NCBI GenBank assembly: GCA_000004985.1
Contig: GG738897.1
DNA length: 64,000 nt
Source of the DNA: Naegleria gruberi
Taxonomy: Eukaryota
Reading direction: 5' to 3' (one strand)
The translations under genes were made by a program, and so were the position numbers. Below the pieces are notes generated by a model. It saw only the letters and a list, made by a program, of their open reading frames with translations, was not told where the DNA came from and did no database searches. Below, one piece after another: positions 936 to 39,111 of this stretch. Every line of letters begins with the position of its first letter. The stretch's first letter is position 1.

Positions 936-3900
936 NNNNNNNNNNNNNNNNNNNNNNNNNNNNNNNNNNNNNNNNNNNNNNNNNNNNNNNNNNNNNNNNN
1001 NNNNNNNNNNNNNNNNNNNNNNNNNNNNNNNNNNNNNNNNNNNNNNNNNNNNNNNNNNNNNNNNNNNNNNNNNNNNNNNNNNNNNNNNNNNNNNNNNNNN
1101 NNNNNNNNNNNNNNNNNNNNNNNNNNNNNNNNNNNNNNNNNNNNNNNNNNNNNNNNNNNNNNNNNNNNNNNNNNNNNNNNNNNNNNNNNNNNNNNNNNNN
1201 NNNNNNNNNNNNNNNNNNNNNNNNNNNNNNNNNNNNNNNNNNNNNNNNNNNNNNNNNNNNNNNNNNNNNNNNNNNNNNNNNNNNNNNNNNNNNNNNNNNN
1301 NNNNNNNNNNNNNNNNNNNNNNNNNNNNNNNNNNNNNNNNNNNNNNNNNNNNNNNNNNNNNNNNNNNNNNNNNNNNNNNNNNNNNNNNNNNNNNNNNNNN
1401 NNNNNNNNNNNNNNNNNNNNNNNNNNNNNNNNNNNNNNNNNNNNNNNNNNNNNNNNNNNNNNNNNNNNNNNNNNNNNNNNNNNNNNNNNNNNNNNNNNNN
1501 NNNNNNNNNNNNNNNNNNNNNNNNNNNNNNNNNNNNNNNNNNNNNNNNNNNNNNNNNNNNNNNNNNNNNNNNNNNNNNNNNNNNNNNNNNNNNNNNNNNN
1601 NNNNNNNNNNNNNNNNNNNNNNNNNNNNNNNNNNNNNNNNNNNNNNNNNNNNNNNNNNNNNNNNNNNNNNNNNNNNNNNNNNNNNNNNNNNNNNNNNNNN
1701 NNNNNNNNNNNNNNNNNNNNNNNNNNNNNNNNNNNNNNNNNNNNNNNNNNNNNNNNNNNNNNNNNNNNNNNNNNNNNNNNNNNNNNNNNNNNNNNNNNNN
1801 NNNNNNNNNNNNNNNNNNNNNNNNNNNNNNNNNNNNNNNNNNNNNNNNNNNNNNNNNNNNNNNNNNNNNNNNNNNNNNNNNNNNNNNNNNNNNNNNNNNN
1901 NNNNNNNNNNNNNNNNNNNNNNNNNNNNNNNNNNNNNNNNNNNNNNNNNNNNNNNNNNNNNNNNNNNNNNNNNNNNNNNNNNNNNNNNNNNNNNNNNNNN
2001 NNNNNNNNNNNNNNNNNNNNNNNNNNNNNNNNNNNNNNNNNNNNNNNNNNNNNNNNNNNNNNNNNNNNNNNNNNNNNNNNNNNNNNNNNNNNNNNNNNNN
2101 NNNNNNNNNNNNNNNNNNNNNNNNNNNNNNNNNNNNNNNNNNNNNNNNNNNNNNNNNNNNNNNNNNNNNNNNNNNNNNNNNNNNNNNNNNNNNNNNNNNN
2201 NNNNNNNNNNNNNNNNNNNNNNNNNNNNNNNNNNNNNNNNNNNNNNNNNNNNNNNNNNNNNNNNNNNNNNNNNNNNNNNNNNNNNNNNNNNNNNNNNNNN
2301 NNNNNNNNNNNNNNNNNNNNNNNNNNNNNNNNNNNNNNNNNNNNNNNNNNNNNNNNNNNNNNNNNNNNNNNNNNNNNNNNNNNNNNNNNNNNNNNNNNNN
2401 NNNNNNNNNNNNNNNNNNNNNNNNNNNNNNNNNNNNNNNNNNNNNNNNNNNNNNNNNNNNNNNNNNNNNNNNNNNNNNNNNNNNNNNNNNNNNNNNNNNN
2501 NNNNNNNNNNNNNNNNNNNNNNNNNNNNNNNNNNNNNNNNNNNNNNNNNNNNNNNNNNNNNNNNNNNNNNNNNNNNNNNNNNNNNNNNNNNNNNNNNNNN
2601 NNNNNNNNNNNNNNNNNNNNNNNNNNNNNNNNNNNNNNNNNNNNNNNNNNNNNNNNNNNNNNNNNNNNNNNNNNNNNNNNNNNNNNNNNNNNNNNNNNNN
2701 NNNNNNNNNNNNNNNNNNNNNNNNNNNNNNNNNNNNNNNNNNNNNNNNNNNNNNNNNNNNNNNNNNNNNNNNNNNNNNNNNNNNNNNNNNNNNNNNNNNN
2801 NNNNNNNNNNNNNNNNNNNNNNNNNNNNNNNNNNNNNNNNNNNNNNNNNNNNNNNNNNNNNNNNNNNNNNNNNNNNNNNNNNNNNNNNNNNNNNNNNNNN
2901 NNNNNNNNNNNNNNNNNNNNNNNNNNNNNNNNNNNNNNNNNNNNNNNNNNNNNNNNNNNNNNNNNNNNNNNNNNNNNNNNNNNNNNNNNNNNNNNNNNNN
3001 NNNNNNNNNNNNNNNNNNNNNNNNNNNNNNNNNNNNNNNNNNNNNNNNNNNNNNNNNNNNNNNNNNNNNNNNNNNNNNNNNNNNNNNNNNNNNNNNNNNN
3101 NNNNNNNNNNNNNNNNNNNNNNNNNNNNNNNNNNNNNNNNNNNNNNNNNNNNNNNNNNNNNNNNNNNNNNNNNNNNNNNNNNNNNNNNNNNNNNNNNNNN
3201 NNNNNNNNNNNNNNNNNNNNNNNNNNNNNNNNNNNNNNNNNNNNNNNNNNNNNNNNNNNNNNNNNNNNNNNNNNNNNNNNNNNNNNNNNNNNNNNNNNNN
3301 NNNNNNNNNNNNNNNNNNNNNNNNNNNNNNNNNNNNNNNNNNNNNNNNNNNNNNNNNNNNNNNNNNNNNNNNNNNNNNNNNNNNNNNNNNNNNNNNNNNN
3401 NNNNNNNNNNNNNNNNNNNNNNNNNNNNNNNNNNNNNNNNNNNNNNNNNNNNNNNNNNNNNNNNNNNNNNNNNNNNNNNNNNNNNNNNNNNNNNNNNNNN
3501 NNNNNNNNNNNNNNNNNNNNNNNNNNNNNNNNNNNNNNNNNNNNNNNNNNNNNNNNNNNNNNNNNNNNNNNNNNNNNNNNNNNNNNNNNNNNNNNNNNNN
3601 NNNNNNNNNNNNNNNNNNNNNNNNNNNNNNNNNNNNNNNNNNNNNNNNNNNNNNNNNNNNNNNNNNNNNNNNNNNNNNNNNNNNNNNNNNNNNNNNNNNN
3701 NNNNNNNNNNNNNNNNNNNNNNNNNNNNNNNNNNNNNNNNNNNNNNNNNNNNNNNNNNNNNNNNNNNNNNNNNNNNNNNNNNNNNNNNNNNNNNNNNNNN
3801 NNNNNNNNNNNNNNNNNNNNNNNNNNNNNNNNNNNNNNNNNNNNNNNNNNNNNNNNNNNNNNNNNNNNNNNNNNNNNNNNNNNNNNNNNNNNNNNNNNNN

Positions 3901-3965
3901 NNNNNNNNNNNNNNNNNNNNNNNNNNNNNNNNNNNNNNNNNNNNNNNNNNNNNNNNNNNNNNNNN
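936..3965. other. Assembly gap (3,030 N)
   Basis: Uninterrupted run of n; the 1145-aa, 1036-aa and 1015-aa ORFs crossing it in the ORF track are translation artefacts (poly-X). Confidence 1.
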
Positions 3966-20582: not shown

Positions 20583-22109
20583 ATGACCTTCATTTCCCTC
20601 AGCAATCATCAAGACAATAGTACGTATGGTTATAGTTTGCTTCGTCTCTGTGGAGCCATTAAGGGACACTCCAAGACCAACACATCAAACGGTGCACAAA
20701 ATCAATGGCTTTTAATTACTCAACAGCCAGCCAATAAAACTACACGATGGGAAGTAAGGGAGAGCTCGTTCAAGGCACTAATTTTACTCTCCGAAGGAGT
20801 TAATACATTGCAATTAAAATTGGAATCAAATCCGAATGAAATTTTAGGGAATTTTACATTTACCTACGATGCATCATTGATTAATAATTGGAATAGGGAA
20901 AATAAGATGATTAAGAGAGTGATTCCAGTGCATTTCGTTTGTAGTGATCATGATGGATCGTTTCAGTCAATTGAAGGATGTCAAACTGCAGAGATTGCTA
21001 GACAAAAGCTTGGAGTTGCTGCATTAATGTATCAAACTTTCTGTGCTGAAGCTTTGAAGCATAACAAGACGTTTGGATTGGAGATGGAAAGTGACAGAAC
21101 TAATATGCCACATGTCATGACATTTAAATCAAAAAAGTGGACCAGAAGTGCTTTGGAAGCTCTTGGAGATCACTGGAACGATGGAGGATGTGCTGGTTGG
21201 TCAGCAATCTATGAAGAATTAGAGGAACATGACATGCACAACCCAAATTTCATTTACTTTTGTGTTTTGGCGGGAAGCAAATATAACACAACAACTCACA
21301 AGACACAAATGGGAACTGCACTTGGTGGAGGTAAGCTTGCCTTATGGACAGACTGTACCTTGTATTCCTATGCCAAAAATGTTGATGAAATTGTCAAATG
21401 TTTGCTAGATAACAGAAAAGTCGATGTCAACAAATTACCAGATGACAGCTGTTACAGAGGAAGTTACTGGGCTAATTATTCTACTGGACTAGGAGCTGCA
21501 ATGCACGAATTGGGGCATTGCTTTGGTTGTCCACATACCCCTGGAGGAATCATGGCCAGAGGATTCGATGATTTCAATCGTTTCTTTATGATTTCAGAAC
21601 CTGGAGACAACCAAGCAATTATTACAAAAACTCACGAGTTGGGAGCTTTTTGGGAGGATTCTTCGATTGCTATTATTTTGAAACATCCAGTGGTTGGGTC
21701 AAAGAGTGAGTGTGTGATTATACCAGGGAAATCAGTGGTGCAAGTGCCAGTTGTCAAAAGCAATGTTAGTTCTGTAAATACAAATTCAATGATGGATTGT
21801 CACTATTACGTTTGTGGAAAGAGTTTTGAGAATGATTCTAGTTTTGAGCATGAATCTAAAACTACTTGGCTTGAAAGACATGGCGAAGTTCCTTTTGCTT
21901 CCTTTATTGAAACTGCCAGAAATCAAGAAGAAATAATATTATTCGACAATGGACGAAACATGGAACTGAAGCTGACCAAAGCACAAGCTTTTTGGAAAAT
22001 GGCGGATGCTACCAATTGGTATTTATTAGCAAATGGAAAACCTTTATTTTCGCACATTCAGGAAGATAGGAAACTATTAGAAAAGCATGGATGTGAAATA
22101 AAGTATTAG
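20583..22109 (+). CDS. Metzincin-type zinc metalloprotease (HExxHxxGxxH plus Met-turn)
   Basis: AAMHELGHCFGCPHTPGGIMARG is an exact HExxHxxGxxH zinc-binding motif followed by a Met-containing turn. 508 aa, single exon. Confidence 0.5.
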   Translation: MTFISLSNHQDNSTYGYSLLRLCGAIKGHSKTNTSNGAQNQWLLITQQPANKTTRWEVRESSFKALILLSEGVNTLQLKLESNPNEILGNFTFTYDASLINNWNRENKMIKRVIPVHFVCSDHDGSFQSIEGCQTAEIARQKLGVAALMYQTFCAEALKHNKTFGLEMESDRTNMPHVMTFKSKKWTRSALEALGDHWNDGGCAGWSAIYEELEEHDMHNPNFIYFCVLAGSKYNTTTHKTQMGTALGGGKLALWTDCTLYSYAKNVDEIVKCLLDNRKVDVNKLPDDSCYRGSYWANYSTGLGAAMHELGHCFGCPHTPGGIMARGFDDFNRFFMISEPGDNQAIITKTHELGAFWEDSSIAIILKHPVVGSKSECVIIPGKSVVQVPVVKSNVSSVNTNSMMDCHYYVCGKSFENDSSFEHESKTTWLERHGEVPFASFIETARNQEEIILFDNGRNMELKLTKAQAFWKMADATNWYLLANGKPLFSHIQEDRKLLEKHGCEIKY

Positions 22110-25458: not shown

Positions 25459-27853
25459 TTAAGCAATAATACAATGCTTATTCTTCTTTTCCTTAGGTGT
25501 AACAACTTTCTCCTTCTTTCTTCCAAGTAAAAAGTCAACAATACTAACTTCCTTCTTCTTGAAAGTTTTCTTATTCCAAATAGCAGAAGCTCTTCCTCTA
25601 CCAAAGAGTTTCTTTTTGGTTGGAGAGGAATCTTCTGAGGATTTTGGAGAAACTTCCTTAGTAATGACCTTATTGGCATTCTCACACAAATGAGCAGTTC
25701 TAGAGAATTTGGAGAATAGAGCAGCAATTGGACAATTGTTTTCTTTTGCTTTCTTTGGAAGTAAAAGTTCACCAGCAGCTGGAATTTGAACTTGGAATTC
25801 GTTAATGATTGATTGTTGGAATTCTTCATTGAAAACAGTGAACCAGTTAGGTGGATTAACGTCGTATTTCTTGTAGGTGTATTTGGTCTTGTTAACAATT
25901 TCGTGTTTACCTCCAGCAAGTTCAGGATGATAAGTTTCCATCAAATAGTCCAAAACATTCTTACGAATGTCAGCTTCTGCTGAAGTGATGGATCGTGAGG
26001 TGGAAACATCTGACAAGGATGAAGAATCGATTGATTGTCTGGATTCCAATGAGGTCAATGATTGTGCGCTAGAGTTGAATGAAGCAGTTGACAAGTTATT
26101 GACAGTCTTGATAACAGTTGTAACATCACTCTTCCAAAAGTTCTTCAATTCACACTTGTGTTCTTTCAATTGACTTGGAAGGGCAATTTCCAAAAGTTCA
26201 GTTGGATGTTGATCAGATGGCAATACTTGAACATAACGATCAAAGTAATCCTTAGTATTCTCCTTCAACTTATCCAACAAACTGGTTGGCTCATAAATTC
26301 TGAGTTTTGGTGAATACTTGGTCATGTTAATCAAACCAAAGTAAACTTCAGGGAAGGTCTTATTTGGAATATTGGCCTTTCTAGCATCATTCTTCTTGAA
26401 TGCCTTACCATAGATTAAACACTTCATTTGATTACATTGTAAAATACCATTGAAAATGTCTTGAAGGGAATATTCTTGACCTCCCAAATTGTATCTGACC
26501 TTTCTGTAAAAGATAATATTAGTAACTTCAACTTGTGGCATTGAACCAGAAACGAGCAAGGCGTGTAAAAGCAACAAATTGTAAGCATTGATAAAGAAGG
26601 TCAACTTTTCTTCGTCTGACTTTAACAATGACAAGTCACAATGAGCCAAATCAAAGGTTTCATGTTGGAATTTTTCATACTTGTTACAACAAGTTTCAGA
26701 TTTACCCAAATCATCAAAATTCAATTCAACAACTGCTTCAGATTCATTGGATTCACAACTTGTCTTTCTGAAATATTTAATATCTGCTTGAATGACATTC
26801 AATAAACTTTCCAACAATTGTGTAATCTTTGTAATTGGGTGAACAACTTGCAAATCTCCCATTGTCTTTCCAATAATTGACAAGTATCCTTCAGGTTGAT
26901 TCAAAACAACACCTTCTCCCTTATTGGCATTCAAAACTCTTTCACGATGATAAGTATCATCTCCTTGGGAGGATAAAAACAAGGCCATACATTCGTACAT
27001 TTCATCAGAGGACATGAATCTTTGGAATGGATCACTCAAATTATGTAACAAGTCAGTTTTCAATTCTTCCAAAACAGTTTGAATCTTTTCAAGATTCGAA
27101 TGCATCTTGTTGAGTGTTTCTTCAATCATTTGTGAACAAGAATTTGTACTAATTGAATCGTCGTCGGTTTTTTGAGTGTGAGAAATAAAATCTTGAACTT
27201 CCTTGGTGAAAGAAATAGATTCTAATACTTTCTTTTTCATTGTGGAGGAAATGTTAATTTCGAATAATGAACTGGCATCGAAATAGGTCTTTTTGAATTG
27301 TTGAATACGTTTGAAACATTCTCTAATTTCATCAACACTTGTTGTGTTTACGTATTTAATGGATTGTTCTGAATTTGTATTGGAAATGAAGGAACTATTA
27401 GCTGAGGAAATAGACGAAACATCAGAAATATCATCACGATAGACATCAGAAGTATCAATGACCCAGTCCATCTTCTTTTTGGAATATAAGAGGTAATCTA
27501 TCAAGGATTTTAATTCATAATATGCAAGAATATTCTAATTTGTTGTTAGAAAAATATTAGAAACAAGACGAAACTTACTTCCTTGTTAAATTCTTCTGAG
27601 AGAAATTTGTAAAAATACGAAACTCCAAGTGGACAAGAAAGAATATTCTCCACACTAAAGTTTCCTGTTTGTGCATAGGCATCAATTTTATCCTTGTATG
27701 CTATTTAGTATTTTTGTAAATTTTTGTTATTATTCGAAACTTACTAACAATTAATTTATCCAACTCTAAACGTTCACTTTCAAAACCTTGCAAATTGAAG
27801 GAATTATCTGAGAGACCACCAAGAGATGAAGATCTTGAGAGAGTTTTTGACAT
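25459..27853 (-). CDS. RGS-domain protein of about 768 aa; 3 exons (27853..27745, 27700..27579, 27534..25459)
   Basis: ATG at 27853. Donors A|GTAAGT (27744) and GAA|GTAAGT (27578). Acceptors aaatag| and caaattag| give two 44-nt introns and restore a continuous frame. Exons 2-3 encode …NFSVENILSCPLGVSYFYKFLSEEFNKE|NILAYYELKSLIDYLLYSK…, which matches the RGS N-terminal block. The ORF track shows only exon 3 (with a TTG start). Confidence 0.5.
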
Positions 27854-29996: not shown

Positions 29997-31193
29997 ATGC
30001 TCCACTCCAACGAAGGAAATCACGTTCAATTTTTTCTTTGTGATTTTAAACATTCCGAAAATTTGGTTAATTGTCAATTATTTAATTTATTAAAATTAAA
30101 ATTAGGTTTTTGTAAAGTAGGATCACCAATTACTTCCAATGTATTAAATGGAATTAAATTATTAGGAATTGATGAACCATCACACATGTTACCAAAAATG
30201 TTATCAAAACATTTAGAAAATTACCTGTTTGAATGTTGTGTTGGAACTGATCGATTGGTTTCTTATTCGATTGCCATTGTGGAAAGAATGAAGAAAGAGG
30301 AAACTAGAAAGAAAAAGACCATTGTGATTGGGAATGGTAAAATGTGGTTCTATACAGTTGGATACTTGTTAAAAACCTTTGGAGGAGATGAAATTAAGGT
30401 TTGCAATTTGGTGGAAGATCAAACGTACAACCAGGAAAATATAATTCTTGGAACTCCTGATAAAATTAATGAACTATTGGAAAGTGGAAATGTTAATTGT
30501 ACAGATATTAATCTATTGGTGGTTGATCAACCAGATGAACTGTCTAGATTCGATTTATCAATGCATGCCATTTTGAGGAATGTTAATTGTCAAATATTTT
30601 GGTTCAGCTCTAAGAGAAATGATTTCACCAATGAAATTTATCTGAAATCTCCCATTGTTATCGAACCACTCCAAGATGAAAAGTCTACCAATCAGAATTT
30701 GGGATATATTTACTCCAAACATTTTTACATTGACGTAGAAAAGGAAAGCTACAAACCTGAAACTCTGCCTGATTTACTGGACTACATCTCAGCACAATGT
30801 GCAATTTATTGTAATACTTATGAACGTGCGATTGAAATTTCAAGAGCTCTGGAGCGTGAGCATCACACAGCCCATTGTCTACACAATGAAATGTCAGACT
30901 CAGAAATTGAACAAAAAATCAATGATTTCAGAAATGCAATTGTCCAAAACTTGATAATTTCCAATTACAAATTCCCCAAATTGAATTTCAATCCTAAAAT
31001 TACCGTCAATTACGATCTACCTTGGCAAAATGACAAGTATGTCAAATGTTGTTGTTTGAGATCAAAATATGAGCCCAGAAGTATTCATATTAGTTTCGTT
31101 AGAAATGAGGATAAGCTCAAGTTGAAAGAACTTGAAAGATACTATTCTCTTTCTATTGATGAATGCCCCATGGACATTATCGAGATGATTTGA
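29997..31193 (+). CDS. eIF4A-derived DEAD-box-like protein with all catalytic motifs degenerate (pseudo-helicase), copy 1
   Basis: Co-linear with eIF4A: Q-motif-like GIDEPSHMLPKML; motif I region VGTDRLVS (not GTGKT); Ib ILGTPDKINELL (TPGR-like); motif II LVVDQPDE (not DEAD); motif III FSSK (not SAT); helicase-C block CAIYCNTYERAIEISRALE…; C-terminus YYSLSIDECPMDIIEMI versus eIF4A FYNTSIEEMPLNVADLI. No HRIGRxGR. Confidence 0.55.
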   Translation: MLHSNEGNHVQFFLCDFKHSENLVNCQLFNLLKLKLGFCKVGSPITSNVLNGIKLLGIDEPSHMLPKMLSKHLENYLFECCVGTDRLVSYSIAIVERMKKEETRKKKTIVIGNGKMWFYTVGYLLKTFGGDEIKVCNLVEDQTYNQENIILGTPDKINELLESGNVNCTDINLLVVDQPDELSRFDLSMHAILRNVNCQIFWFSSKRNDFTNEIYLKSPIVIEPLQDEKSTNQNLGYIYSKHFYIDVEKESYKPETLPDLLDYISAQCAIYCNTYERAIEISRALEREHHTAHCLHNEMSDSEIEQKINDFRNAIVQNLIISNYKFPKLNFNPKITVNYDLPWQNDKYVKCCCLRSKYEPRSIHISFVRNEDKLKLKELERYYSLSIDECPMDIIEMI

Positions 31194-31213
31194 AAGTAAT
31201 TTTACAAAAAAAA

Positions 31214-32437
31214 ATGGTCAACTCGAAAGGAGCTTTCGTTCAAATTATTCTCCACGATTTTACTTGCTCTTCAGAAAGTAATAACGAAGATAGATTATTT
31301 AATTTGTTAAAATTAAAATTGGGTCATCAGCAGTTTCAATGTTGGTCAGTTTATGCTTCATTTGAAGAGTACAAACTTTCCGATATTACATTAGAAAGAA
31401 TTTATTTGATGGGATTTGATGAACCATCTACGGGTCATAGACAATGCATTTTTCCAATGATAAATTCACAAAATACATTGGTAAATTTCCTATTCGAACG
31501 TGTGGAAGGAACTGATCGAATGGTTTCTTATTCAATTGCAATTGTGGAACGATTTAGGAATGAGGAAATTAAAAAGAATATCACAATTGTTATTGGAAAG
31601 GGCTATATGTGGTTCCATACAGTTCGACACTTGCTAAAAACCTTTGGAGGTGATGAAATCAAGGTTTTTTGTTTGGAAGAAACTAAAGTAAAATATCAAG
31701 GAAATTATGACGTCTTGATTGGAACTCCTGAGAAAATTAAAGACCTATTGGAAAGTGGAATTGTTAATTGTAAAGATATAAGCTTATTGGTAGTTGATCA
31801 ATTAGATGAATGGAATGAATTCAATTTAAATATGCATGAAATTTTGAGGAATGTTAATTGTCAAATATTTTGGTGTAGTAATGGAAAGAGAAATGATTTC
31901 ACCAATGAAATTTATTTGAAATCTCCCATTGTTATTGAATCCAAAGATGTAGAGAAGAATAATATGGTATTGAACTGCAGTTCTCGACATTTTAATATTG
32001 GCGTGGAAAAGGAGATTTACAAACTTGAGGTTCTTGAAGCATTATTAGAAACTATTCCCATCAATACTGTAATTTATTGTAATTCTGATAATGTTGCCAA
32101 TGGTATTTCAAATTACCTTCAAGCACATAATTTAGCAGTTTCATGTCTAAGCAAAGACATGTCAGAATTAGAAATTGAACAAAAAACCAATGAATTCAGA
32201 GAAGGAAATGTCCAACTCCACTTGATTCTTGCAAATCTAAAAGTTTCCCGATTGAAATTCAATCCTCGAGTAGTTATCAATTTCAATCTCCCTTGGCAGA
32301 ATGATAAGTATACATATTGGACTCCTTGCTTTAGTCTAATAACGAATGAAGATAGAATCAAGTTGAAAGAAATTGAAAAGATTTATTCAATAGAAATACA
32401 AGACAAAGAGCTACGAAAATACAGTATTTGGAATTGA
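31214..32437 (+). CDS. eIF4A-derived pseudo-helicase, copy 2 (tandem paralog of the 29997..31193 gene)
   Basis: Same architecture and degenerate motifs (LIGTPEKIKDLL, LVVDQLDE, FWCSNGK), about 45% identical to copy 1 by eye. ATG 31214 (MVNSKGAFVQIILHDF) parallels MLHSNEGNHVQFFLCDF of copy 1; the ORF-track start at 31163 overlaps copy 1 and is probably spurious. Confidence 0.55.
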   Translation: MVNSKGAFVQIILHDFTCSSESNNEDRLFNLLKLKLGHQQFQCWSVYASFEEYKLSDITLERIYLMGFDEPSTGHRQCIFPMINSQNTLVNFLFERVEGTDRMVSYSIAIVERFRNEEIKKNITIVIGKGYMWFHTVRHLLKTFGGDEIKVFCLEETKVKYQGNYDVLIGTPEKIKDLLESGIVNCKDISLLVVDQLDEWNEFNLNMHEILRNVNCQIFWCSNGKRNDFTNEIYLKSPIVIESKDVEKNNMVLNCSSRHFNIGVEKEIYKLEVLEALLETIPINTVIYCNSDNVANGISNYLQAHNLAVSCLSKDMSELEIEQKTNEFREGNVQLHLILANLKVSRLKFNPRVVINFNLPWQNDKYTYWTPCFSLITNEDRIKLKEIEKIYSIEIQDKELRKYSIWN

Positions 32438-32663: not shown

Positions 32664-33146
32664 ATGAAGTCCCTCATGTTTATTTTAGCTCTGGTCTTGT
32701 TCTTGGCCTTGAGTGTGCATGGATCTATCTATCAATACAGATATTTCAGTGATGCCAAGTGTACAACTACCCCTTACTTGACTAGATATTGGAATTATGA
32801 TTCATGTGAACCAGTAGCAAATAATTGTACTTTTGGAGGTGAATCACGAACTTGTCTTTCCAAATTGCCAGAAATTACCCCTAGTTCCAATACCATTTCG
32901 ATTTATAGTTTTAATTTTGGTTCTTGCTATGGTTGGAATGATGTTTATACATTTGCTACAGATAAATGTATTCCTTACTCAATGGAATCAGGTAGTATAA
33001 TCAAATACCAATCCATGAAGACAGACGGATGCGATAAGATCACCTACTATTATGGAACTGATTGTACTAGGGAAGGAAAAACAACAACAATTTCTGGCAC
33101 GAACTTGTCTTTCCAAATTGCCAGAAATTACCACTTCATGTGTTGA
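32664..33146 (+). CDS. Small secreted Cys-containing protein; C-terminal part continues in another frame (33052..33318) after a 35-bp direct repeat; possibly frameshifted or rearranged
   Basis: Signal peptide MKSLMFILALVLFLALSVHG. Identical 35-mer cacgaacttgtctttccaaattgccagaaattacc at 32847-32881 and 33103-33137, 256 bp (3n+1) apart. The second ORF ends in a hydrophobic GPI-like tail APTITLVLISMLAKII. Confidence 0.35.
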   Translation: MKSLMFILALVLFLALSVHGSIYQYRYFSDAKCTTTPYLTRYWNYDSCEPVANNCTFGGESRTCLSKLPEITPSSNTISIYSFNFGSCYGWNDVYTFATDKCIPYSMESGSIIKYQSMKTDGCDKITYYYGTDCTREGKTTTISGTNLSFQIARNYHFMC

Positions 33147-33563: not shown

Positions 33564-35219
33564 ATGCCCACAAACAACCATCACAATTCCTATCACCCAT
33601 ATCAACAACAGAGAAACTCCGACTCTGATCATCAACATCATCGACAACACTCTCGGAATCATCACCATCATCATCATCATCACCATCATCAGCGAAATAA
33701 TAACTACAATCATAGAGGAAATTATGATGAATATCAAAATAATAATCCAACAATGAGAGAAAATTCAAATCATCATCATCAATATAATATTCCGTATTCA
33801 CATTCTTCTGCTACATCTCAGCAGGGTGGAAGATATTTCGAGCAATTAAATAATAATAATAATCGTCATCAACAACAATACAGAGGAGGAAATCAATCAT
33901 CATCAAATCAAGTTAGATTTTCAATACCATCCTCATCGTCATCAAGTAATTCCTCAAGAATTGAAAAGAATCGAGAACCTGAAAGTCATTCGGCTAAATG
34001 TGACATCTGTAGAGAATATAAACAAAGTGGAATGATGAAATGTATATCTTGTGATGATTGCTACAGACATGTTGATTGTGATGTCGCAAGAAATCCAAAA
34101 TCAAAGCCTAATTCAGAATCTAAATATATCAATTTCATGTGTGAAAATTGTTTTGAAGTTAAGGTCAAGATTGAGGGAGATGACTTTCGAATTTTTGCCC
34201 TCAACAAGGTTACTACAACACCAATTGAAAATGATTTGGATAAAATGGATGATAGTGAAACTTCTTCAGTAATGTGCCCACTTTGTAATCAATTAATTGC
34301 TGGACATTCTAGGGAAATATTTAATAATCATTTAAGGTTTAAATTCAAAGATGCTCTAATTGAAAAGTTTCTACTCACTGGTACTATTCCAATTCCAATT
34401 ACTTCGAGAAAAAGTGGAGTATCCATTGAACACTCATTTAAACCCAATGATTTTAACTCCCTATCAACCTGTTTCTTTGTGCTGGGATTCAAAAAGGATC
34501 AGTTAGAAGAGTACATGGTCAAGAATTGCCCTATTGAATATAATGACATTAGAAATTTCTTAGAAATTGACAGGAATTCATCTATTTGTATCATTTCATG
34601 TTGGACTGTACGAGGTGCCTTCATTTTAGCATGCAAGTTGAGATGTGCAGTGATTGAAACTGCTCATCCAATGATTTACTTTATCAAATCAACAAGATCA
34701 CTCAAAGTATTCCAAAAAATTTGCTCCATTCAAGAATTTACTGGACTTAACAAAGACATTCAATCCATTAAGAATATGGAAATTACAAGTCTTGTTTCAA
34801 GTGAGGGAAAGAATGAGACAATTGTCCACTTTAAAGATGATTTTGATTGTATTAAATGGATGTGGACTTGCCACAAATCTGCCACCACAAGACTTCCCAA
34901 GATTGAATTTCATGATGACCATTTAATTGACACAACGACTATATGTCATATTAAAAATTTACCAACCAAAGACATTACTTTGAGTGAGCTGTGGAAAGAT
35001 ATCAAGAGGAGCTTCAAGCAGAGACTGACTTTCCTCTCCAATCGAGAACAATCAAAGATCAAGTATTATGTCTCTGATTGGTTCTATGATGTTGGTAATC
35101 ATATTATTAGAGTTGAATTTCATCATTCCAAGTTTTGTGAATTATTTAAATTATTGCTTGATGGTTTGGAATTACTTGATGTAAAATTATCAATCACAAT
35201 TCCAAGTTCTACTAGTTAA
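33564..35219 (+). CDS. PHD-finger protein with His/Asn/Gln-rich N-terminus
   Basis: CDICREYKQSGMMKCISCDDCYRHVDCDV…(25)…FMCENC fits C-x2-C-x10-C-x2-C-x5-H-x2-C-x25-C-x2-C (C4HC3). N-terminal run HHHHHHHHHHQ. Confidence 0.5.
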   Translation: MPTNNHHNSYHPYQQQRNSDSDHQHHRQHSRNHHHHHHHHHHQRNNNYNHRGNYDEYQNNNPTMRENSNHHHQYNIPYSHSSATSQQGGRYFEQLNNNNNRHQQQYRGGNQSSSNQVRFSIPSSSSSSNSSRIEKNREPESHSAKCDICREYKQSGMMKCISCDDCYRHVDCDVARNPKSKPNSESKYINFMCENCFEVKVKIEGDDFRIFALNKVTTTPIENDLDKMDDSETSSVMCPLCNQLIAGHSREIFNNHLRFKFKDALIEKFLLTGTIPIPITSRKSGVSIEHSFKPNDFNSLSTCFFVLGFKKDQLEEYMVKNCPIEYNDIRNFLEIDRNSSICIISCWTVRGAFILACKLRCAVIETAHPMIYFIKSTRSLKVFQKICSIQEFTGLNKDIQSIKNMEITSLVSSEGKNETIVHFKDDFDCIKWMWTCHKSATTRLPKIEFHDDHLIDTTTICHIKNLPTKDITLSELWKDIKRSFKQRLTFLSNREQSKIKYYVSDWFYDVGNHIIRVEFHHSKFCELFKLLLDGLELLDVKLSITIPSSTS

Positions 35220-35351: not shown

Positions 35352-36749
<1,398 letters not shown>

Positions 36750-37053: not shown

Positions 37054-39111
37054 TTATTCAAAAGCTTCTCCTATTGAAGAAACTCTTCTTGCTCTCTCTG
37101 TGAAATCGTTCAATGTATCAATTTGACGATTGGTTTGTTCGGAAGTTAATTGTATATTGGTGAGTCTTCTTCTTGATGTAATTGTCTTTGTTAGACCATT
37201 GTAGAATGCCTGACCACGAGAGGACAGAACCTTGTTACGTAAAGCTCGTGGCACCTTTCCTCCAAAATCATTGTAAAATATGGAGGTGTATTTAACAAAG
37301 TTGGCATCAATTTCTTCTAACAAAATTCCTCCTAAAATTTGCCCCTTTACATTGCCCTTCTCAAGTGGAGCATCCTTATTGTCAATGCTCTTCTTGATAA
37401 TGACATAATCTCTACTCTCTGTGCCATCCTCATTAATTTCTCTTCTCACAGTTGTTCCTATACAGTATTCTCTCTTTGAGAGAGGCCACATTAGTTTGTG
37501 TACCTCTTTCTGATAGCTCACTGAGTATTCGTCATTCTTGATATATTCAATAAATTTACAATCTTTCAAATTTGGATCAATGATTTGTGAGTATCTGGTG
37601 TCTAAAAGTGCATCCAACAATTCATCAGTTGTTCCATTCACAATACCAACCTCCTTAATGAGCTTCTTACCATTTGGTTTGTTCTTTTTCTTTTTAGATG
37701 ATGACGTTTGAACTTTTTGAGCGTTGATTTGAGTAGCATTGAACTTGTACTGAGATGAGCTCAAATTTGATACCTTCTTGGATCCCAATTCAGAGTTGAA
37801 AAAGTTAGGATGACTCTCTGCCATTCTCAAATTCTCAAATGATTCATCTGGTTGCTCTATTTGAGAGCCTGTACTAAATCTCTGCTCACTTTCAAATGAT
37901 GAATACTCTTCATTTTGAGAGAGCACTTTCCAAGCATCACTTTTTAACCATAACAATTCATGGAATACATCGAAAAATCTCTCATCAATATTCTTATTAT
38001 CCCTCTCTCTGAGTAATTCTTCGAATCTGTCCTTGATTAGAACTGGTTCATTATCGGTAGAGTGAGAGATGATATCAGAAATGACCTCAGCATGGTTGGT
38101 AGGACACGAATGGCTATGAGTGAATTGAGGAGCAGAGAGTGAGAAGGAAGAGGTCATGCTTAGTGATTGAATTCTAGAACGTCTATTATTTCTAGTACCG
38201 ACGGAGGAAAATAGTGAGACGAGGCACTTTTTCACCGATTCTACATTGGTGGAGCCGACAATATTTGGCAACTCCTTCTTGACATGATTCACTGAATAGG
38301 AAATAAATTGATTACTGGTAATAAATCTTGAAAAGCTATCAGTCTTGAGTGAAATGGTCACCTCAGTCATAGCCTGATCAAACAAGTTAGTTGGGGTATT
38401 GGAAGGAGTGCATTCATCCTCAAATTGATTCACAATTTGGTCTTTGAGAGCGTTAGGTAAATTGAGTTGTTTATCACTAGTGAGTGAGTCATCGACAAAG
38501 GTTTCTACAATATATTTGGCTTGTTGATATCTTTCATTTGAATTGGAAATTTCTCTATAGGTTGGAATGAGTTGAAGAAATTCCAGTGGTGCGCTATTCC
38601 TCTCATACTGAAGAAATTCCCTAAATGCTTCCAAAAAGTCTCCTCCAACATTCATAAATGCATCAAAAACTATTGTAAAATGTTTCATATTTTCCAAAAC
38701 GAGAGATTTAAGAGCAGTCTCATCGATTGAGGCTTGTTTTGTTCCAATAAGTCTGGCTCCTAAATTAATAGGACTATTTGGACCACTTCCATTAGGAAAG
38801 AAGGATCCAGGAGAGTTTGGCATTGATCGTGAGGATGGTATATTACTATTTCCAACAGACAATAAGTTATTACTATTGTTAGAAGAATGATCTGGCACAA
38901 TTCCTAAAGCACTCCACGGAGACATTGGTGATGTTGAAAGCAAACTAGAAGTTGGTGAGCAGGGAGAAACCATACTATTTCCTGAAGGATTATGAGTTGA
39001 CCTCTTGAGAGAAGATGAGGTTGACGAAGTTGGAGAAGTTGCTCTATTATTCATGTTATTATTGCTGTTAGACGAAGATGACGATTTCTGATTTACAAGT
39101 AACATTTTCAA
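37054..39111 (-). CDS. RGS domain plus C-terminal START (StAR-related lipid-transfer) domain protein, paralog A
   Basis: RGS block: FDAFMNVGGDFLEAFREFLQYERNSAPLEFLQLIPTYREI…AKYIVETFV…NLFDQAMTEVTISLKTDSFSRFITSNQF. START block: LIKEVGIVNGTTDELLDALLDTRYSQIIDPNLKDCKFIEYI…LMWPLSKREYCIGTTVRR…VIIKKSIDNKDAPLEKGNVKGQILGGILLEE…FGGKVPRALRNKVLS. Ser/Asn-rich linker. Confidence 0.6.
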   Translation of the reverse strand: MKMLLVNQKSSSSSNSNNNMNNRATSPTSSTSSSLKRSTHNPSGNSMVSPCSPTSSLLSTSPMSPWSALGIVPDHSSNNSNNLLSVGNSNIPSSRSMPNSPGSFFPNGSGPNSPINLGARLIGTKQASIDETALKSLVLENMKHFTIVFDAFMNVGGDFLEAFREFLQYERNSAPLEFLQLIPTYREISNSNERYQQAKYIVETFVDDSLTSDKQLNLPNALKDQIVNQFEDECTPSNTPTNLFDQAMTEVTISLKTDSFSRFITSNQFISYSVNHVKKELPNIVGSTNVESVKKCLVSLFSSVGTRNNRRSRIQSLSMTSSFSLSAPQFTHSHSCPTNHAEVISDIISHSTDNEPVLIKDRFEELLRERDNKNIDERFFDVFHELLWLKSDAWKVLSQNEEYSSFESEQRFSTGSQIEQPDESFENLRMAESHPNFFNSELGSKKVSNLSSSQYKFNATQINAQKVQTSSSKKKKNKPNGKKLIKEVGIVNGTTDELLDALLDTRYSQIIDPNLKDCKFIEYIKNDEYSVSYQKEVHKLMWPLSKREYCIGTTVRREINEDGTESRDYVIIKKSIDNKDAPLEKGNVKGQILGGILLEEIDANFVKYTSIFYNDFGGKVPRALRNKVLSSRGQAFYNGLTKTITSRRRLTNIQLTSEQTNRQIDTLNDFTERARRVSSIGEAFE

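What the first reader, a model, noticed from the sequence alone, without database searches (positions are those of the whole stretch)
29997..32437. Tandem pair of eIF4A-derived pseudo-helicases with every catalytic motif replaced
Both genes are co-linear with eIF4A from the Q-motif region to the C-terminal ...YYSLSIDECPMDIIEMI (eIF4A: FYNTSIEEMPLNVADLI). Walker A is GTDR/GTDRM instead of GTGKT. DEAD is DQPD/DQLD. SAT is SSK/SNG. The HRIGRxGR arginine finger region is gone. Both ORFs are intact and have diverged from each other. That suggests selection on a non-catalytic, RNA- or protein-binding scaffold role (compare eIF4A-III-like or CASC3-like pseudoenzymes) rather than decaying pseudogenes.
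Basis: partly seen in the sequence, partly recalled or inferred. Interest (0 to 1): 0.7.

Follow-up and report, generated by a model that had tools for sequence, protein, structure and literature searches.

The report
Dead eIF4A-like gene pair in Naegleria
Two adjacent Naegleria gruberi genes, plus a third copy elsewhere in the genome, encode proteins that keep the fold of the translation helicase eIF4A but have lost every ATP-using motif; they are still kept as genes under weak selection, so they are uncharacterised members of an already known class, the dead "pseudohelicases".

Summary
The window is Naegleria gruberi NEG-M. Gene 1 (29997-31193, 398 aa) and gene 2 (407 aa, real start most likely 31214, not 31163) align end to end with eIF4A (E 6e-28 and 6e-22; family profile 1e-45). 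Q motif, Walker A (GTDR), Ia, DEAD (DQPD/DQLD), SAT, V and VI are all replaced.

AlphaFold2 predicts two RecA-like domains for both (pLDDT 80 and 79). A third, unlinked paralog (NAEGRDRAFT_54002) carries the same dead motifs, so inactivation predates the duplications.

They are not decaying pseudogenes. All three ORFs are open in two strains at dS of about 0.7-1.5. All indels are in frame. dN/dS is 0.08-0.76 by every method. Conserved blocks still carry synonymous changes.

Constraint is weak, though. Between strains I count 12 nonsynonymous to 5 synonymous changes, against 1:7 in the neighbouring gene.

No relative was found outside N. gruberi, although the database holds N. lovaniensis. RNA-contact motifs are also lost, so I infer a protein-binding role, possibly through the RecA2 surface that eIF4A-type proteins use for MIF4G partners. 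This is untested.

DEAD-box pseudohelicases are already known (Utp25, MUT-15), so this is a new member of a known kind. Interest is modest.

The parts
29997..31193 (+). Gene 1 (NAEGRDRAFT_72373), full ORF of 398 aa. eIF4A-derived pseudohelicase. The database gene model (331 aa) starts at internal Met68.
   Evidence: AF2 pLDDT 80.3, pTM 0.81; Foldseek top hit yeast eIF4A 2vso_A, E 6.8e-21
31194..31213 (+). 20-nt spacer between the gene 1 stop (TGA) and the gene 2 ATG. It is 10 nt in a second strain. It is the shortest same-strand gap between clearly separate genes in the window; typical gaps are 80-140 nt.
31214..32437 (+). Gene 2 (NAEGRDRAFT_72374), 407 aa from ATG 31214. The mechanical ORF from 31163 overlaps gene 1 and is probably not used. 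The database model (342 aa) is N-terminally truncated.
   Evidence: AF2 pLDDT 78.8, pTM 0.73
30078..30107 (+). Gene 1 LFNLLKLKLG, a family-specific motif in the roughly 45-residue N-terminal extension that eIF4A lacks. It is identical in gene 2 (31295-31324) with 2 synonymous differences, and reads ILNWLKIKFG in paralog 3.
30165..30191 (+). Gene 1 Q-motif remnant GIDEPSHML (eIF4A: GFEKPSAIQ). The adenine-reading Gln is lost. Gene 2 equivalent GFDEPSTGH at 31412-31438.
30243..30257 (+). Gene 1 Walker A remnant GTDRL (eIF4A: GTGKT). Gene 2 GTDRM at 31508-31522. GTDR is invariant in all three paralogs.
30330..30350 (+). Gene 1 motif Ia position, GNGKMWF instead of PTRELA. G-x-G-x-x-W is conserved in the family. 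Gene 2 GKGYMWF at 31595-31615.
30525..30536 (+). Gene 1 DEAD-box remnant DQPD. Gene 2 DQLD at 31796-31807 (DQID in the second strain). Paralog 3 has DQAN.
30606..30614 (+). Gene 1 motif III position, SSK instead of SAT. Gene 2 SNG at 31877-31885.
30759..30788 (+). Gene 1 RecA2 helix ETLPDLLDYI, aligned with eIF4A3 DTLCDLYDTL. D259 and D262 correspond to eIF4A3 D270 and D273, and D270 contacts the CWC22 MIF4G domain. Gene 2 has EVLEALLETI at 32027-32056, with Ala at the D270 position.
30960..30986 (+). Gene 1 motif V position, SNYKFPKLN instead of TDLLARGID. Gene 2 ANLKVSRLK at 32231-32257.
31017..31067 (+). Gene 1 LPWQNDKY, a family-specific invariant block that replaces eIF4A LPTNRENY. It is followed by the motif VI remnant KCCCLRSK (eIF4A: HRIGRGGR). 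In gene 2 LPWQNDKY lies at 32288-32311 and the motif VI segment is deleted (junction 32306-32326).
32381..32434 (+). Gene 2 divergent C-terminal tail IYSIEIQDKELRKYSIWN. An eIF4A-like ending (...YLELIDFI) can be read in the +2 frame across the present stop, which suggests an old terminal frameshift. This is inference.

Best explanation
Genes 1 and 2 are a tandem pair from a three-member family of eIF4A-derived pseudohelicases that appears confined to Naegleria gruberi.

**Shown**
- The proteins are full-length homologues of eIF4A and are predicted to fold into the two RecA-like domains.
- The residues needed to bind and hydrolyse ATP are replaced in all three paralogs: the Q-motif Gln, the P-loop Gly/Lys/Thr, the DEAD Glu, SAT and the motif VI arginines. 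Motifs Ia, IV and V, which contact RNA, are replaced too, and the GG doublet and motif Ib survive only in part.
- The replacements are themselves conserved: GTDR, G-x-G-x-x-W, DQxD/N and LPWQN[D/E]KY.
- The reading frames have been kept open through old duplications, with dN/dS below 1.

**Inferred**
- Catalytic death happened once, before the duplications.
- The proteins cannot work as ATP-driven RNA clamps or unwinders.
- They are kept, under weak constraint, for a non-catalytic role as a folded binding module.
- My most likely specific mechanism is protein-protein binding through the better preserved C-terminal RecA2 domain. That is the surface eIF4A-family proteins use to dock on MIF4G/HEAT partners (eIF4G, CWC22, NOM1/Sgd1, CNOT1-type). 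The family would then act as an adaptor or as a decoy that cannot be activated. I put this specific step at roughly 25% on its own.
- The 10-20 nt spacer means gene 2 is either co-transcribed with gene 1 or transcribed from a start inside gene 1.
For: **Homology**
- PDB phmmer E 5.9e-28 and 6.3e-22, full length.
- Family profile: eIF4A-I 159.6 bits, yeast eIF4A 157.8, eIF4A-III 139, DDX6 93.
- Foldseek top hits are yeast eIF4A and eIF4A3.

**Fold**
- AF2 pLDDT 80.3 with pTM 0.81, and 78.8 with pTM 0.73.

**Dead motifs shared by three paralogs**
-.
- Only 14 of 75 near-invariant eIF4A positions survive in all three.

**Selection**
- g1/g2 NG86 dN/dS 0.53, bootstrap interval 0.40-0.71, no replicate at or above 1.
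- Maximum-likelihood values 0.36, 0.17 and 0.08 for the three pairs.
- dS 0.7-1.5 by NG86.
- 10-16 gap events per pair, all in frame.
- Neutral simulation: P(ORF stays open) is 0.0005 at 0.1 substitutions per site and 0 at 0.2 or more.
- Conserved amino-acid blocks still carry synonymous differences, pS 0.33. Most of the conservation is therefore not gene conversion.
- dN to paralog 3 is equal for g1 (0.507) and g2 (0.496), so neither copy is running away.

**Second strain**
- Contig L001 is 98.9% identical. Both ORFs are intact and the locus is syntenic.

**RecA2 is better kept than RecA1**
- The eIF4A C-terminal domain alone gives 83 of 101 bits for gene 1 and 108 of 158 bits for the profile.
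- Identity to eIF4A is 28-33% in the C-terminal domain against 20-23% in the N-terminal domain.

**MIF4G lead**
- eIF4A3 D270 directly contacts CWC22 K174, and D270G weakens binding (PMC7261170).
- The aligned residue is Asp in gene 1 (D259) and in paralog 3.

**Precedent**
- MUT-15 is a dead DEAD-box-like scaffold that keeps a RecA2 partner surface.
Against: **Weak constraint**
- Between strains, gene 1 has 5 nonsynonymous and 3 synonymous changes and gene 2 has 7 and 2. This does not differ from neutral expectation (binomial p = 0.23).
- It is significantly more relaxed than the neighbouring C45/AAT gene at 1:7 (Fisher p = 0.011).

**Each copy has lost a different conserved segment**
- Gene 1 has 10- and 5-residue deletions around the Q motif.
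- Gene 2 has a 10-residue motif VI deletion and a probably frameshifted tail.

**The MIF4G idea is thin**
- It rests on a domain-level trend and one or two aligned acidic residues.
- Gene 2 has Ala at the D270-equivalent position.
- The neighbouring specificity patch (eIF4A3 REAN 298-301) differs in all three paralogs.

**Gaps in the evidence**
- No expression or protein evidence could be obtained.
- No orthologue was found in any other species, so long-term conservation across species is not demonstrated.
Confidence: 0.6

Rival explanations
1. The copies are unprocessed pseudogenes, or genes now on their way to loss. They were freed from constraint when catalysis was lost, are drifting, and the open frames are leftovers.
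For: - Between strains there are 12 nonsynonymous and 5 synonymous changes, omega 0.40 and 0.85, not distinguishable from 1 (p = 0.23).
- This is significantly more relaxed than the neighbours (Fisher p = 0.011).
- There are copy-specific deletions of conserved segments and a probable terminal frameshift in gene 2.
- No orthologue outside N. gruberi and no expression evidence.
Against: - Three ORFs of about 400 codons are open in a 33% GC genome at dS 0.7-1.5, in two strains.
- Neutral simulation gives 0.0005 or less.
- All indels are in frame.
- dN/dS is below 1 by four methods, and the bootstrap interval excludes 1.
- New family-specific motifs are invariant yet still carry synonymous differences.
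- The N:S ratio between strains (2.4) is about the same as between paralogs (2.7), so there is no sign of recent release from constraint.
Confidence: 0.12
2. The proteins are ATP-independent RNA-binding scaffolds. They would still hold RNA, through a new basic surface rather than the canonical clamp.
For: - The dead DEAD-box-like MUT-15 binds RNA with Kd 0.26 uM through a positively charged patch.
- TP[D/E]K at motif Ib keeps a basic residue in genes 1 and 2.
Against: - Motifs Ia, IV and V are replaced in all three paralogs.
- Motif Ib is lost in paralog 3 (ICNN), and the GG doublet survives only in gene 1.
- The basic RR after motif IV becomes YE, DN or DE.
- Overall pI is 5.5-5.8, with more acidic than basic residues.
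- Canonical RNA binding needs the ATP-closed cleft, which cannot form by the canonical route.
Confidence: 0.12
3. The genes are eIF4A-like genes acquired from a giant virus. Nucleocytoviricota that infect Naegleria carry eIF4A homologues, and an acquired copy could have degenerated in the host genome.
For: - The best hit in the viral structure library is Catovirus CTV1 'translation initiation factor 4A-III', E 1.2e-21, 22% identity.
- Viral insertions are reported in N. gruberi (PMC12344493, seen).
Against: - The viral hit is no better than cellular eIF4A (2vso_A E 6.8e-21, 23% identity).
- No family-specific match was found in 2.9 million viral contigs.
- GC and GC3 match the flanking genes.
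- The neighbours are ordinary cellular genes: C45/AAT peptidase, tubulin, RGS, DUF547.
- Paralog 3 is on another scaffold.
Confidence: 0.05
4. The proteins are still working NTPases or helicases that use non-canonical motifs.
For: - The first Asp of DEAD (D177) and the G-T of the P-loop are invariant in the family.
- Helicase_C passes the Pfam threshold for gene 1 and paralog 3.
Against: - P-loop Gly becomes Asp, Lys becomes Arg, and the Mg-binding Thr becomes Leu, Met or Ile.
- The catalytic Glu becomes Gln.
- The motif VI arginines are absent or deleted, and the Q-motif Gln is absent.
- From established knowledge of DEAD-box enzymes, each of these changes alone abolishes activity.
Confidence: 0.03

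Closest known systems
eIF4A (eIF4A-I / Tif1), DEAD-box translation initiation helicase
   Same: - Collinear over the whole helicase core.
- It is the best sequence and fold match.
- Same length class and the same two RecA domains.
- Shared structural blocks: FYIxVExExYK, VINYDLP, the C-terminal ...ED..L..IE..Y...I.E.P.
- Similar acidic pI.
   Different: [quoted passage not shown]
- Only 23-28 of 75 near-invariant positions are kept.
- There is an extra N-terminal extension of about 45 residues with its own conserved motif.
- Cysteine content is 3-4 times higher.
- Identity is only 20-33%.
eIF4A-III (DDX48), exon junction complex core
   Same: - Second-best family match, 139 bits.
- The acidic RecA2 helix residues D270 and D273, used for CWC22 MIF4G binding, are kept in gene 1 and paralog 3.
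   Different: - eIF4A-III is a catalytically competent ATPase whose hydrolysis is inhibited within the complex (established knowledge). Here the ATP site itself is destroyed.
- The family scores 20 bits lower against eIF4A-III than against eIF4A-I.
- The REAN specificity patch is not kept.
Utp25/Def, pseudohelicase of the SSU processome (PMC9539457)
   Same: A DEAD-box-like two-RecA protein that acts without helicase activity.
   Different: - Utp25 is an ancient, universally conserved eukaryotic protein with its own Pfam family.
- The Naegleria proteins hit only DEAD and Helicase_C weakly. They are clearly eIF4A-derived and were found in no other species.
MUT-15 of C. elegans, DEAD-box-like pseudohelicase scaffold (bioRxiv 10.64898/2026.09.04.749402)
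   Same: - The Q motif is absent and the DEAD and other ATP motifs are degenerate.
- The RecA architecture is reused as a scaffold, and a RecA2 partner-binding surface is kept.
- It is a lineage-restricted protein.
   Different: - No specific sequence relationship was tested or is expected.
- MUT-15 has demonstrated partners, RNA binding and a lack of ATPase activity. Nothing has been shown experimentally for the Naegleria proteins.
- MUT-15 has a basic RNA-binding patch, whereas these proteins are acidic overall.

Membership tests
DEAD-box RNA helicase, eIF4A subfamily | Homology to, and fold of, two tandem RecA-like domains | tested here: met
   phmmer E 5.9e-28 and 6.3e-22; profile E 1e-45. 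AF2 pLDDT about 80 and Foldseek E 7e-21 to eIF4A.
DEAD-box RNA helicase, eIF4A subfamily | Q motif (GFxxPSxIQ with upstream aromatic residue) | tested here: not met
   GIDEPSHML, GFDEPSTGH and GFEKPSYVH. The Gln is absent in all three.
DEAD-box RNA helicase, eIF4A subfamily | Motif I, Walker A AxxGxGKT | tested here: not met
   VGTDRL, EGTDRM and EGTDRI.
DEAD-box RNA helicase, eIF4A subfamily | Motif II, D-E-A-D | tested here: not met
   DQPD, DQLD (DQID in the second strain) and DQAN.
DEAD-box RNA helicase, eIF4A subfamily | Motif III (SAT) and motif VI (HRxGRxGR) | tested here: not met
   Motif III reads SSK, SNG and CLT. Motif VI reads KCCCLRSK in gene 1, is deleted in gene 2, and reads LRQIISR in paralog 3.
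DEAD-box RNA helicase, eIF4A subfamily | RNA-contact motifs Ia (PTRELA), GG, Ib (TPGR), IV and V (ARGID) | tested here: not met
   Ia becomes G-x-G-x-x-W. V becomes SNYKFPKLN, ANLKVSRLK or TDHFSKLE. Ib is partly kept as TPDK/TPEK in genes 1 and 2 and lost in paralog 3. The GG doublet aligns with GG only in gene 1.
DEAD-box RNA helicase, eIF4A subfamily | RNA-stimulated ATPase and unwinding activity | not testable with these tools
   Needs recombinant protein. The sequence predicts none.
DEAD-box RNA helicase, eIF4A subfamily | Pfam DEAD (PF00270) and Helicase_C (PF00271) above the gathering scores | tested here: inconclusive
   Gene 1: Helicase_C 26.0 (cut-off 23.5) passes, DEAD 19.3 (cut-off 26) fails. 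Gene 2: DEAD 25.0 and Helicase_C 22.2 both just fail. Paralog 3: Helicase_C 32.3 passes.
DEAD-box-derived pseudohelicases (functional class: Utp25, MUT-15) | [quoted passage not shown] | tested here: met
DEAD-box-derived pseudohelicases (functional class: Utp25, MUT-15) | Maintained as a functional gene, meaning purifying selection and expression | tested here: inconclusive
   Selection: dN/dS is below 1 among paralogs and the ORFs are intact, but the strain-level data are not significant. Expression could not be tested.
DEAD-box-derived pseudohelicases (functional class: Utp25, MUT-15) | Demonstrated lack of ATPase activity and a defined scaffold partner | not testable with these tools
   Needs biochemistry or interaction data.
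Utp25/Def orthologues | Match to the Utp25 family model | tested here: not met
   Pfam scans at E up to 1 list only DEAD, Helicase_C, Cas3-like_C_2 and CMS1 as weak hits.
Pseudogene (non-functional relic) | Disrupted reading frame (stops or frameshifts) | tested here: not met
   Three paralogs in two strains are all open. The one exception is a possible old terminal frameshift in the gene 2 tail.
Pseudogene (non-functional relic) | Neutral evolution, dN/dS about 1 | tested here: not met
   Paralog comparisons give 0.08-0.76, with bootstrap interval 0.40-0.71 for the pair. Between strains the values 0.40 and 0.85 rest on only 17 changes.

The most novel reading that the evidence does not exclude
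The trio is a Naegleria-specific set of non-activatable eIF4A mimics. They would dock on MIF4G/HEAT partners such as eIF4G and so tune translation or RNP assembly, for example during the amoeba-to-flagellate switch. Genes 1 and 2 would be expressed from one dicistronic transcript across the 10-20 nt spacer. That would be a natural dominant-negative eIF4A system, and a case of polycistronic expression in Heterolobosea.
Probability: 0.1. Interest if true: 0.6.

Novelty: new member of a known kind. Interest (0 to 1): 0.35.

Why it matters
If the proteins are made, they are a natural experiment. They show what an eIF4A fold is still good for once ATP binding, hydrolysis and canonical RNA clamping are removed.

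- They could reveal which partner surfaces of eIF4A act on their own.
- They add a protist, eIF4A-derived example to the short list of DEAD-box pseudohelicases (Utp25, MUT-15).
- For annotation, three N. gruberi "predicted proteins" can be renamed, and their truncated gene models extended at the N-terminus.
- The 10-20 nt spacing flags a possible dicistronic unit.

The family looks species-restricted and weakly constrained, and no function is shown. The general significance is therefore modest.

Tried and rejected
1. **Orthologue searches outside N. gruberi found nothing.**
   - Word-indexed search with gene 1 and with the family profile: only the three N. gruberi proteins.
   - Exhaustive HMMER against 1.84 billion representatives: after the family, only eIF4A-like proteins at 169 bits or less, some themselves degenerate.
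   - JGI metagenome contigs and IMG/VR viral contigs with family-specific peptide patterns: nothing.
   - Positive control: the neighbouring C45/AAT gene does find N. lovaniensis and other Naegleria orthologues.

2. **Synteny test found no remnant.**
   - No pseudohelicase remnant lies within 10 kb of the AAT orthologue in N. lovaniensis (L003), or within about 10 kb in a Logan contig (L004). In the 7.5-kb contig L005 the flanks reach only about 3 kb on each side. Nor is there one in the 353 nt downstream in a closer relative (L006).
   - The 385-394 aa gene that follows AAT there is unrelated.

3. **Expression could not be tested.**
   - Exact-protein look-ups for the NEG-M proteins returned nothing, and nothing for the control neighbour either. 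The test was therefore uninformative.
   - Gene and protein identifiers occur in no searchable paper or held supplement.

4. **Gene conversion as the cause of the conserved blocks: mostly rejected.** The blocks carry synonymous differences (pS 0.33). It remains possible only for residues 192-223, where pS is 0-0.19.

5. **A read-through or fused two-cassette protein: rejected.** Gene 2 is in a different frame from gene 1. The relative frame also changes in the second strain because of the 10-nt spacer indel.

6. **Giant-virus origin: no specific support**.

7. **Other dead ends.**
   - The AFDB Foldseek library was unavailable.
   - I could not retrieve N. gruberi's own eIF4A, so no rooted phylogeny was made. 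Profile bit scores were used instead.
   - A literature search for polycistronic transcription in Naegleria found nothing.

Full report
**Source and anatomy**

The window is a scaffold of Naegleria gruberi NEG-M. The two ORFs are the database entries NAEGRDRAFT_72373 and NAEGRDRAFT_72374, both named only "predicted protein" or "uncharacterized protein".

Gene 1 is the ORF 29997-31193 (398 aa). The mechanical ORF for gene 2 starts at 31163 and overlaps gene 1. The biologically sensible start is ATG 31214 (407 aa), for four reasons:
- Similarity to gene 1 begins there.
- Both ATGs, and that of the third paralog, sit directly after an A8-9 run.
- A closely related strain has a 10-nt deletion in the spacer that would break the upstream extension.
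- In that strain the gene was called from this ATG.

The database models (331 and 342 aa) start at internal methionines and omit an N-terminal region that is conserved among paralogs.

Stop and next start are 20 nt apart, or 10 nt in the other strain. Same-strand gaps between clearly separate genes elsewhere in the window are about 80-140 nt. The relative reading frame of the two genes differs between strains, so a fused or read-through product is excluded.

**Checking the observation**

Both proteins align with eIF4A over essentially their whole length. Gene 1 residues 45-396 align with yeast eIF4A 28-391 (E 5.9e-28). Gene 2 residues 63-417 of the longer ORF align with human eIF4A1 12-382 (E 6.3e-22).

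A profile of the family scores as follows:

| Target | Bits |
|---|---|
| human eIF4A-I | 159.6 |
| yeast eIF4A | 157.8 |
| eIF4A-III | 139 |
| DDX6 | 93 |
| Dbp5 | 89 |

The parent is therefore an eIF4A-type gene, more likely eIF4A-I.

AlphaFold2 models built on a 76-sequence alignment are confident for both RecA-like domains. Gene 1 gives pLDDT 80.3 and pTM 0.81. Gene 2 gives 78.8 and 0.73. Foldseek returns yeast eIF4A (2vso_A, E 6.8e-21) and eIF4A3 first.

Motif states, read from alignments to human eIF4A1:

| Motif | eIF4A | Gene 1 | Gene 2 |
|---|---|---|---|
| Q | GFEKPSAIQ | GIDEPSHML | GFDEPSTGH |
| I | GTGKT | GTDRL | GTDRM |
| Ia | PTRELA | GNGKMWF | GKGYMWF |
| Ib | TPGR | TPDK | TPEK |
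| II | DEAD | DQPD | DQLD |
| III | SAT | SSK | SNG |
| V | TDLLARGID | SNYKFPKLN | ANLKVSRLK |
| VI | HRIGRGGR | KCCCLRSK | deleted |

One exception is that the eIF4A-like C-terminus belongs to gene 1 only.

**A third paralog, and the family's own conserved motifs**

An exhaustive HMMER search of 1.84 billion representatives found one further relative at 304 bits. It is NAEGRDRAFT_54002, on another N. gruberi scaffold. Its full-length form (414 aa) comes from the second strain.

It carries EGTDRI, NGWQWA, DQAN and LPWQNEKY, which is the same pattern of dead motifs. GTDR, G-x-G-x-x-W, DQ, LPWQN[D/E]KY and an N-terminal L/I-x-N-x-LK-x-K-x-G motif are shared by all three. Only 14 of 75 positions that are at least 90% conserved in canonical eIF4As survive in all three.

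The simplest reading is a single loss of catalysis before the duplications, followed by conservation of a new sequence pattern.

**Gene or relic?**

Among paralogs:

| Pair | aa identity | dS (NG86) | dN/dS (NG86) | dN/dS (ML) |
|---|---|---|---|---|
| g1-g2 | 53% | 0.70 | 0.53 | 0.36 |
| g1-g3 | 43% | 1.13 | 0.45 | 0.17 |
| g2-g3 | 42% | 1.49 | 0.33 | 0.08 |

- The bootstrap interval for g1-g2 is 0.40-0.71, and no replicate reached 1.
- The LWL85 method gives the highest values, 0.50-0.76.
- Runs of identical amino acids still differ at synonymous sites (pS 0.33), so most conservation is selection rather than gene conversion. The stretch 192-223 has pS 0-0.19 and could be converted.
- All 10-16 gap events per pair are in frame.
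- In a neutral simulation the gene 1 ORF stays open in 1.15% of runs at 0.05 substitutions per site, 0.05% at 0.1, and never at 0.2 or more.
- dN from g3 is equal for g1 and g2 (0.507 and 0.496), so neither tandem copy is degenerating faster.

A metagenome contig from a 98.9%-identical strain (L001, ERZ929261) is syntenic: AAT, gene 1, gene 2, then the CfaA-like gene. Both ORFs are intact there. They are not.

The constraint is nevertheless weak. Between the strains, gene 1 has 5 nonsynonymous and 3 synonymous changes, and gene 2 has 7 and 2. The neighbouring C45/AAT gene has 1 and 7.
- The pooled 12:5 does not differ from the neutral site ratio (p = 0.23).
- It does differ from the neighbour (Fisher p = 0.011).
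- The N:S ratio is similar between strains (2.4) and between paralogs (2.7), so there is no sign of recent release from constraint.
- For calibration, AAT has dN/dS 0.09-0.16. Its dS is about 1.0 to a closer Naegleria relative (L006) and 2.5-3.5 to N. lovaniensis. The family's duplications are thus about as old as species-level splits within the genus.

Each copy has lost a different piece. Gene 1 has 10- and 5-residue deletions around the Q motif. Gene 2 has the motif VI segment deleted. Its last dozen or so residues look like the result of an old frameshift, because an eIF4A-like ...YLELIDFI can be read in the +2 frame across the stop.

**Distribution**

No relative was found outside N. gruberi in any of these:
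- two word-indexed searches of 5.8 billion clusters;
- the exhaustive representative search;
- JGI metagenome contigs;
- viral contigs.

The control search with the neighbouring AAT protein did recover N. lovaniensis (53% identity) and two other Naegleria-like sources. The absence is therefore not a database gap at the level of annotated proteins.

The DNA around those AAT orthologues holds no remnant of the family. That DNA spans 10 kb on each side in L003, about 10 kb in L004, about 3 kb in L005, and 353 nt downstream in L006. Unannotated copies elsewhere in those genomes could not be checked.

The representative library also contains many other degenerate eIF4A-like proteins from unidentified sources. 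Dead eIF4A derivatives as such are therefore not rare. None of them is specifically related to the Naegleria trio.

**How it most likely works**

Shown: the eIF4A fold is kept and the ATP site is destroyed. Motifs Ia, IV and V, which contact RNA, are replaced in all three paralogs. Motif Ib and the GG doublet survive only in part. The proteins are acidic (pI 5.5-5.8) and unusually rich in cysteine, with 11-17 against 4 in human eIF4A1.

From established knowledge of DEAD-box enzymes, four features each preclude ATP-driven closure and RNA clamping:
- a P-loop with Asp in place of Gly and no Lys or Thr;
- Gln in place of the catalytic Glu;
- no arginine fingers;
- no Q-motif Gln.

Inferred: the proteins act as folded binding modules. 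The C-terminal RecA2 domain is the better conserved half. It contributes 83 of 101 bits for gene 1 and 108 of 158 for the profile. Its identity to eIF4A is 28-33%, against 20-23% for the N-terminal half.

That domain is the primary anchor for eIF4G (PMC3064780). It carries the helix whose Asp270 in eIF4A3 contacts Lys174 of the CWC22 MIF4G domain (PMC7261170). The aligned residues are Asp-x-x-Asp in gene 1 (D259, D262) and paralog 3, but Ala-x-x-Glu in gene 2.

I therefore favour an adaptor or non-activatable decoy for a MIF4G/HEAT-type partner. The support is thin, and I rate that specific step at about one in four. The precedent is MUT-15, a dead DEAD-box-like protein that keeps a RecA2 partner surface and scaffolds a complex.

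**Rivals**

- Relic pseudogenes: about 0.12.
- ATP-independent RNA binder: about 0.12.
- Giant-virus origin: about 0.05. The best viral structural hit, the Catovirus eIF4A-like protein, is no closer than cellular eIF4A.
- Still-active enzyme: about 0.03.

**Comparison with known kinds, and novelty**

By descent these are members of the eIF4A branch of DEAD-box proteins. By every functional defining motif they fail membership.

They fit the already known class of DEAD-box-derived pseudohelicases: Utp25 (PMC9539457) and MUT-15. They are not orthologues of Utp25, because no such Pfam hit appears.

No paper in the searchable library mentions the three genes.

I rate this a new member of a known kind. 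A specialist would find it mildly interesting, for the clean and complete motif replacement, the new conserved motifs, the tandem pair with a 10-20 nt spacer, and the apparent species restriction. It is not very surprising, and no long-standing question becomes testable. Interest 0.35.

Noticed in passing
window 32664-33146 (+), insertion at 33096-33129: The CfaA/B/C-like secreted-protein gene downstream of gene 2 carries a 34-nt insertion in NEG-M. The insertion copies the gene's own codons for RTCLSKLPEIT and is absent from the second strain (L001). It shifts the frame, giving 160 aa against 192 aa in L001. Removing it restores a 206-aa ORF. There are no GT..AG ends, so it is not an obvious intron. 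It could be a strain-specific disruption or an assembly artefact.
   Followed up: partly
window 936-3965: A run of N marks a scaffold gap. It produces spurious long ORFs and near-zero GC in the composition profile.
   Followed up: yes
window 31194-31213: The stop-to-start spacer is only 20 nt, and 10 nt in strain L001 through deletion of AATTTTACAA. It is the shortest same-strand gap between clearly separate genes in the window. This raises the possibility of a dicistronic transcript or of a promoter inside gene 1.
   Followed up: partly
window 33564-35219 (+): A 551-aa ORF with long His, Asn and Ser homopolymer-rich N-terminal stretches and Cys-rich segments. It has no Pfam match.
   Followed up: no
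representative library hits P0023, P0025, P0026, P0037, P0060, P0140 and others: Many other eIF4A-like proteins from unidentified genomes and metagenomes have several degenerate catalytic motifs. Examples include DEAD replaced by HNVV, YEAN, DRAD, NYVD or TDLD. Dead eIF4A derivatives seem to have arisen repeatedly. Some of these may be fragments or poor gene models.
   Followed up: partly
L003 1-1471 (N. lovaniensis PYSW02000056.1): About 8.5 kb upstream of the AAT orthologue (which starts at L003 position 10001), a 1238-residue gene product carries OrfB_IS605 (weak) and Cas12f1-like_TNB Pfam hits. It is a TnpB/Fanzor-like gene in a eukaryotic contig.
   Followed up: no
window 35352-36707 (-), 37054-39111 (-), 25459-27504 (-), 20583-22109 (+): The neighbours are ordinary cellular genes: a tubulin, an RGS-domain protein, a DUF547 protein and a PF12044 metallopeptidase. 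This argues against a foreign or viral island.
   Followed up: yes
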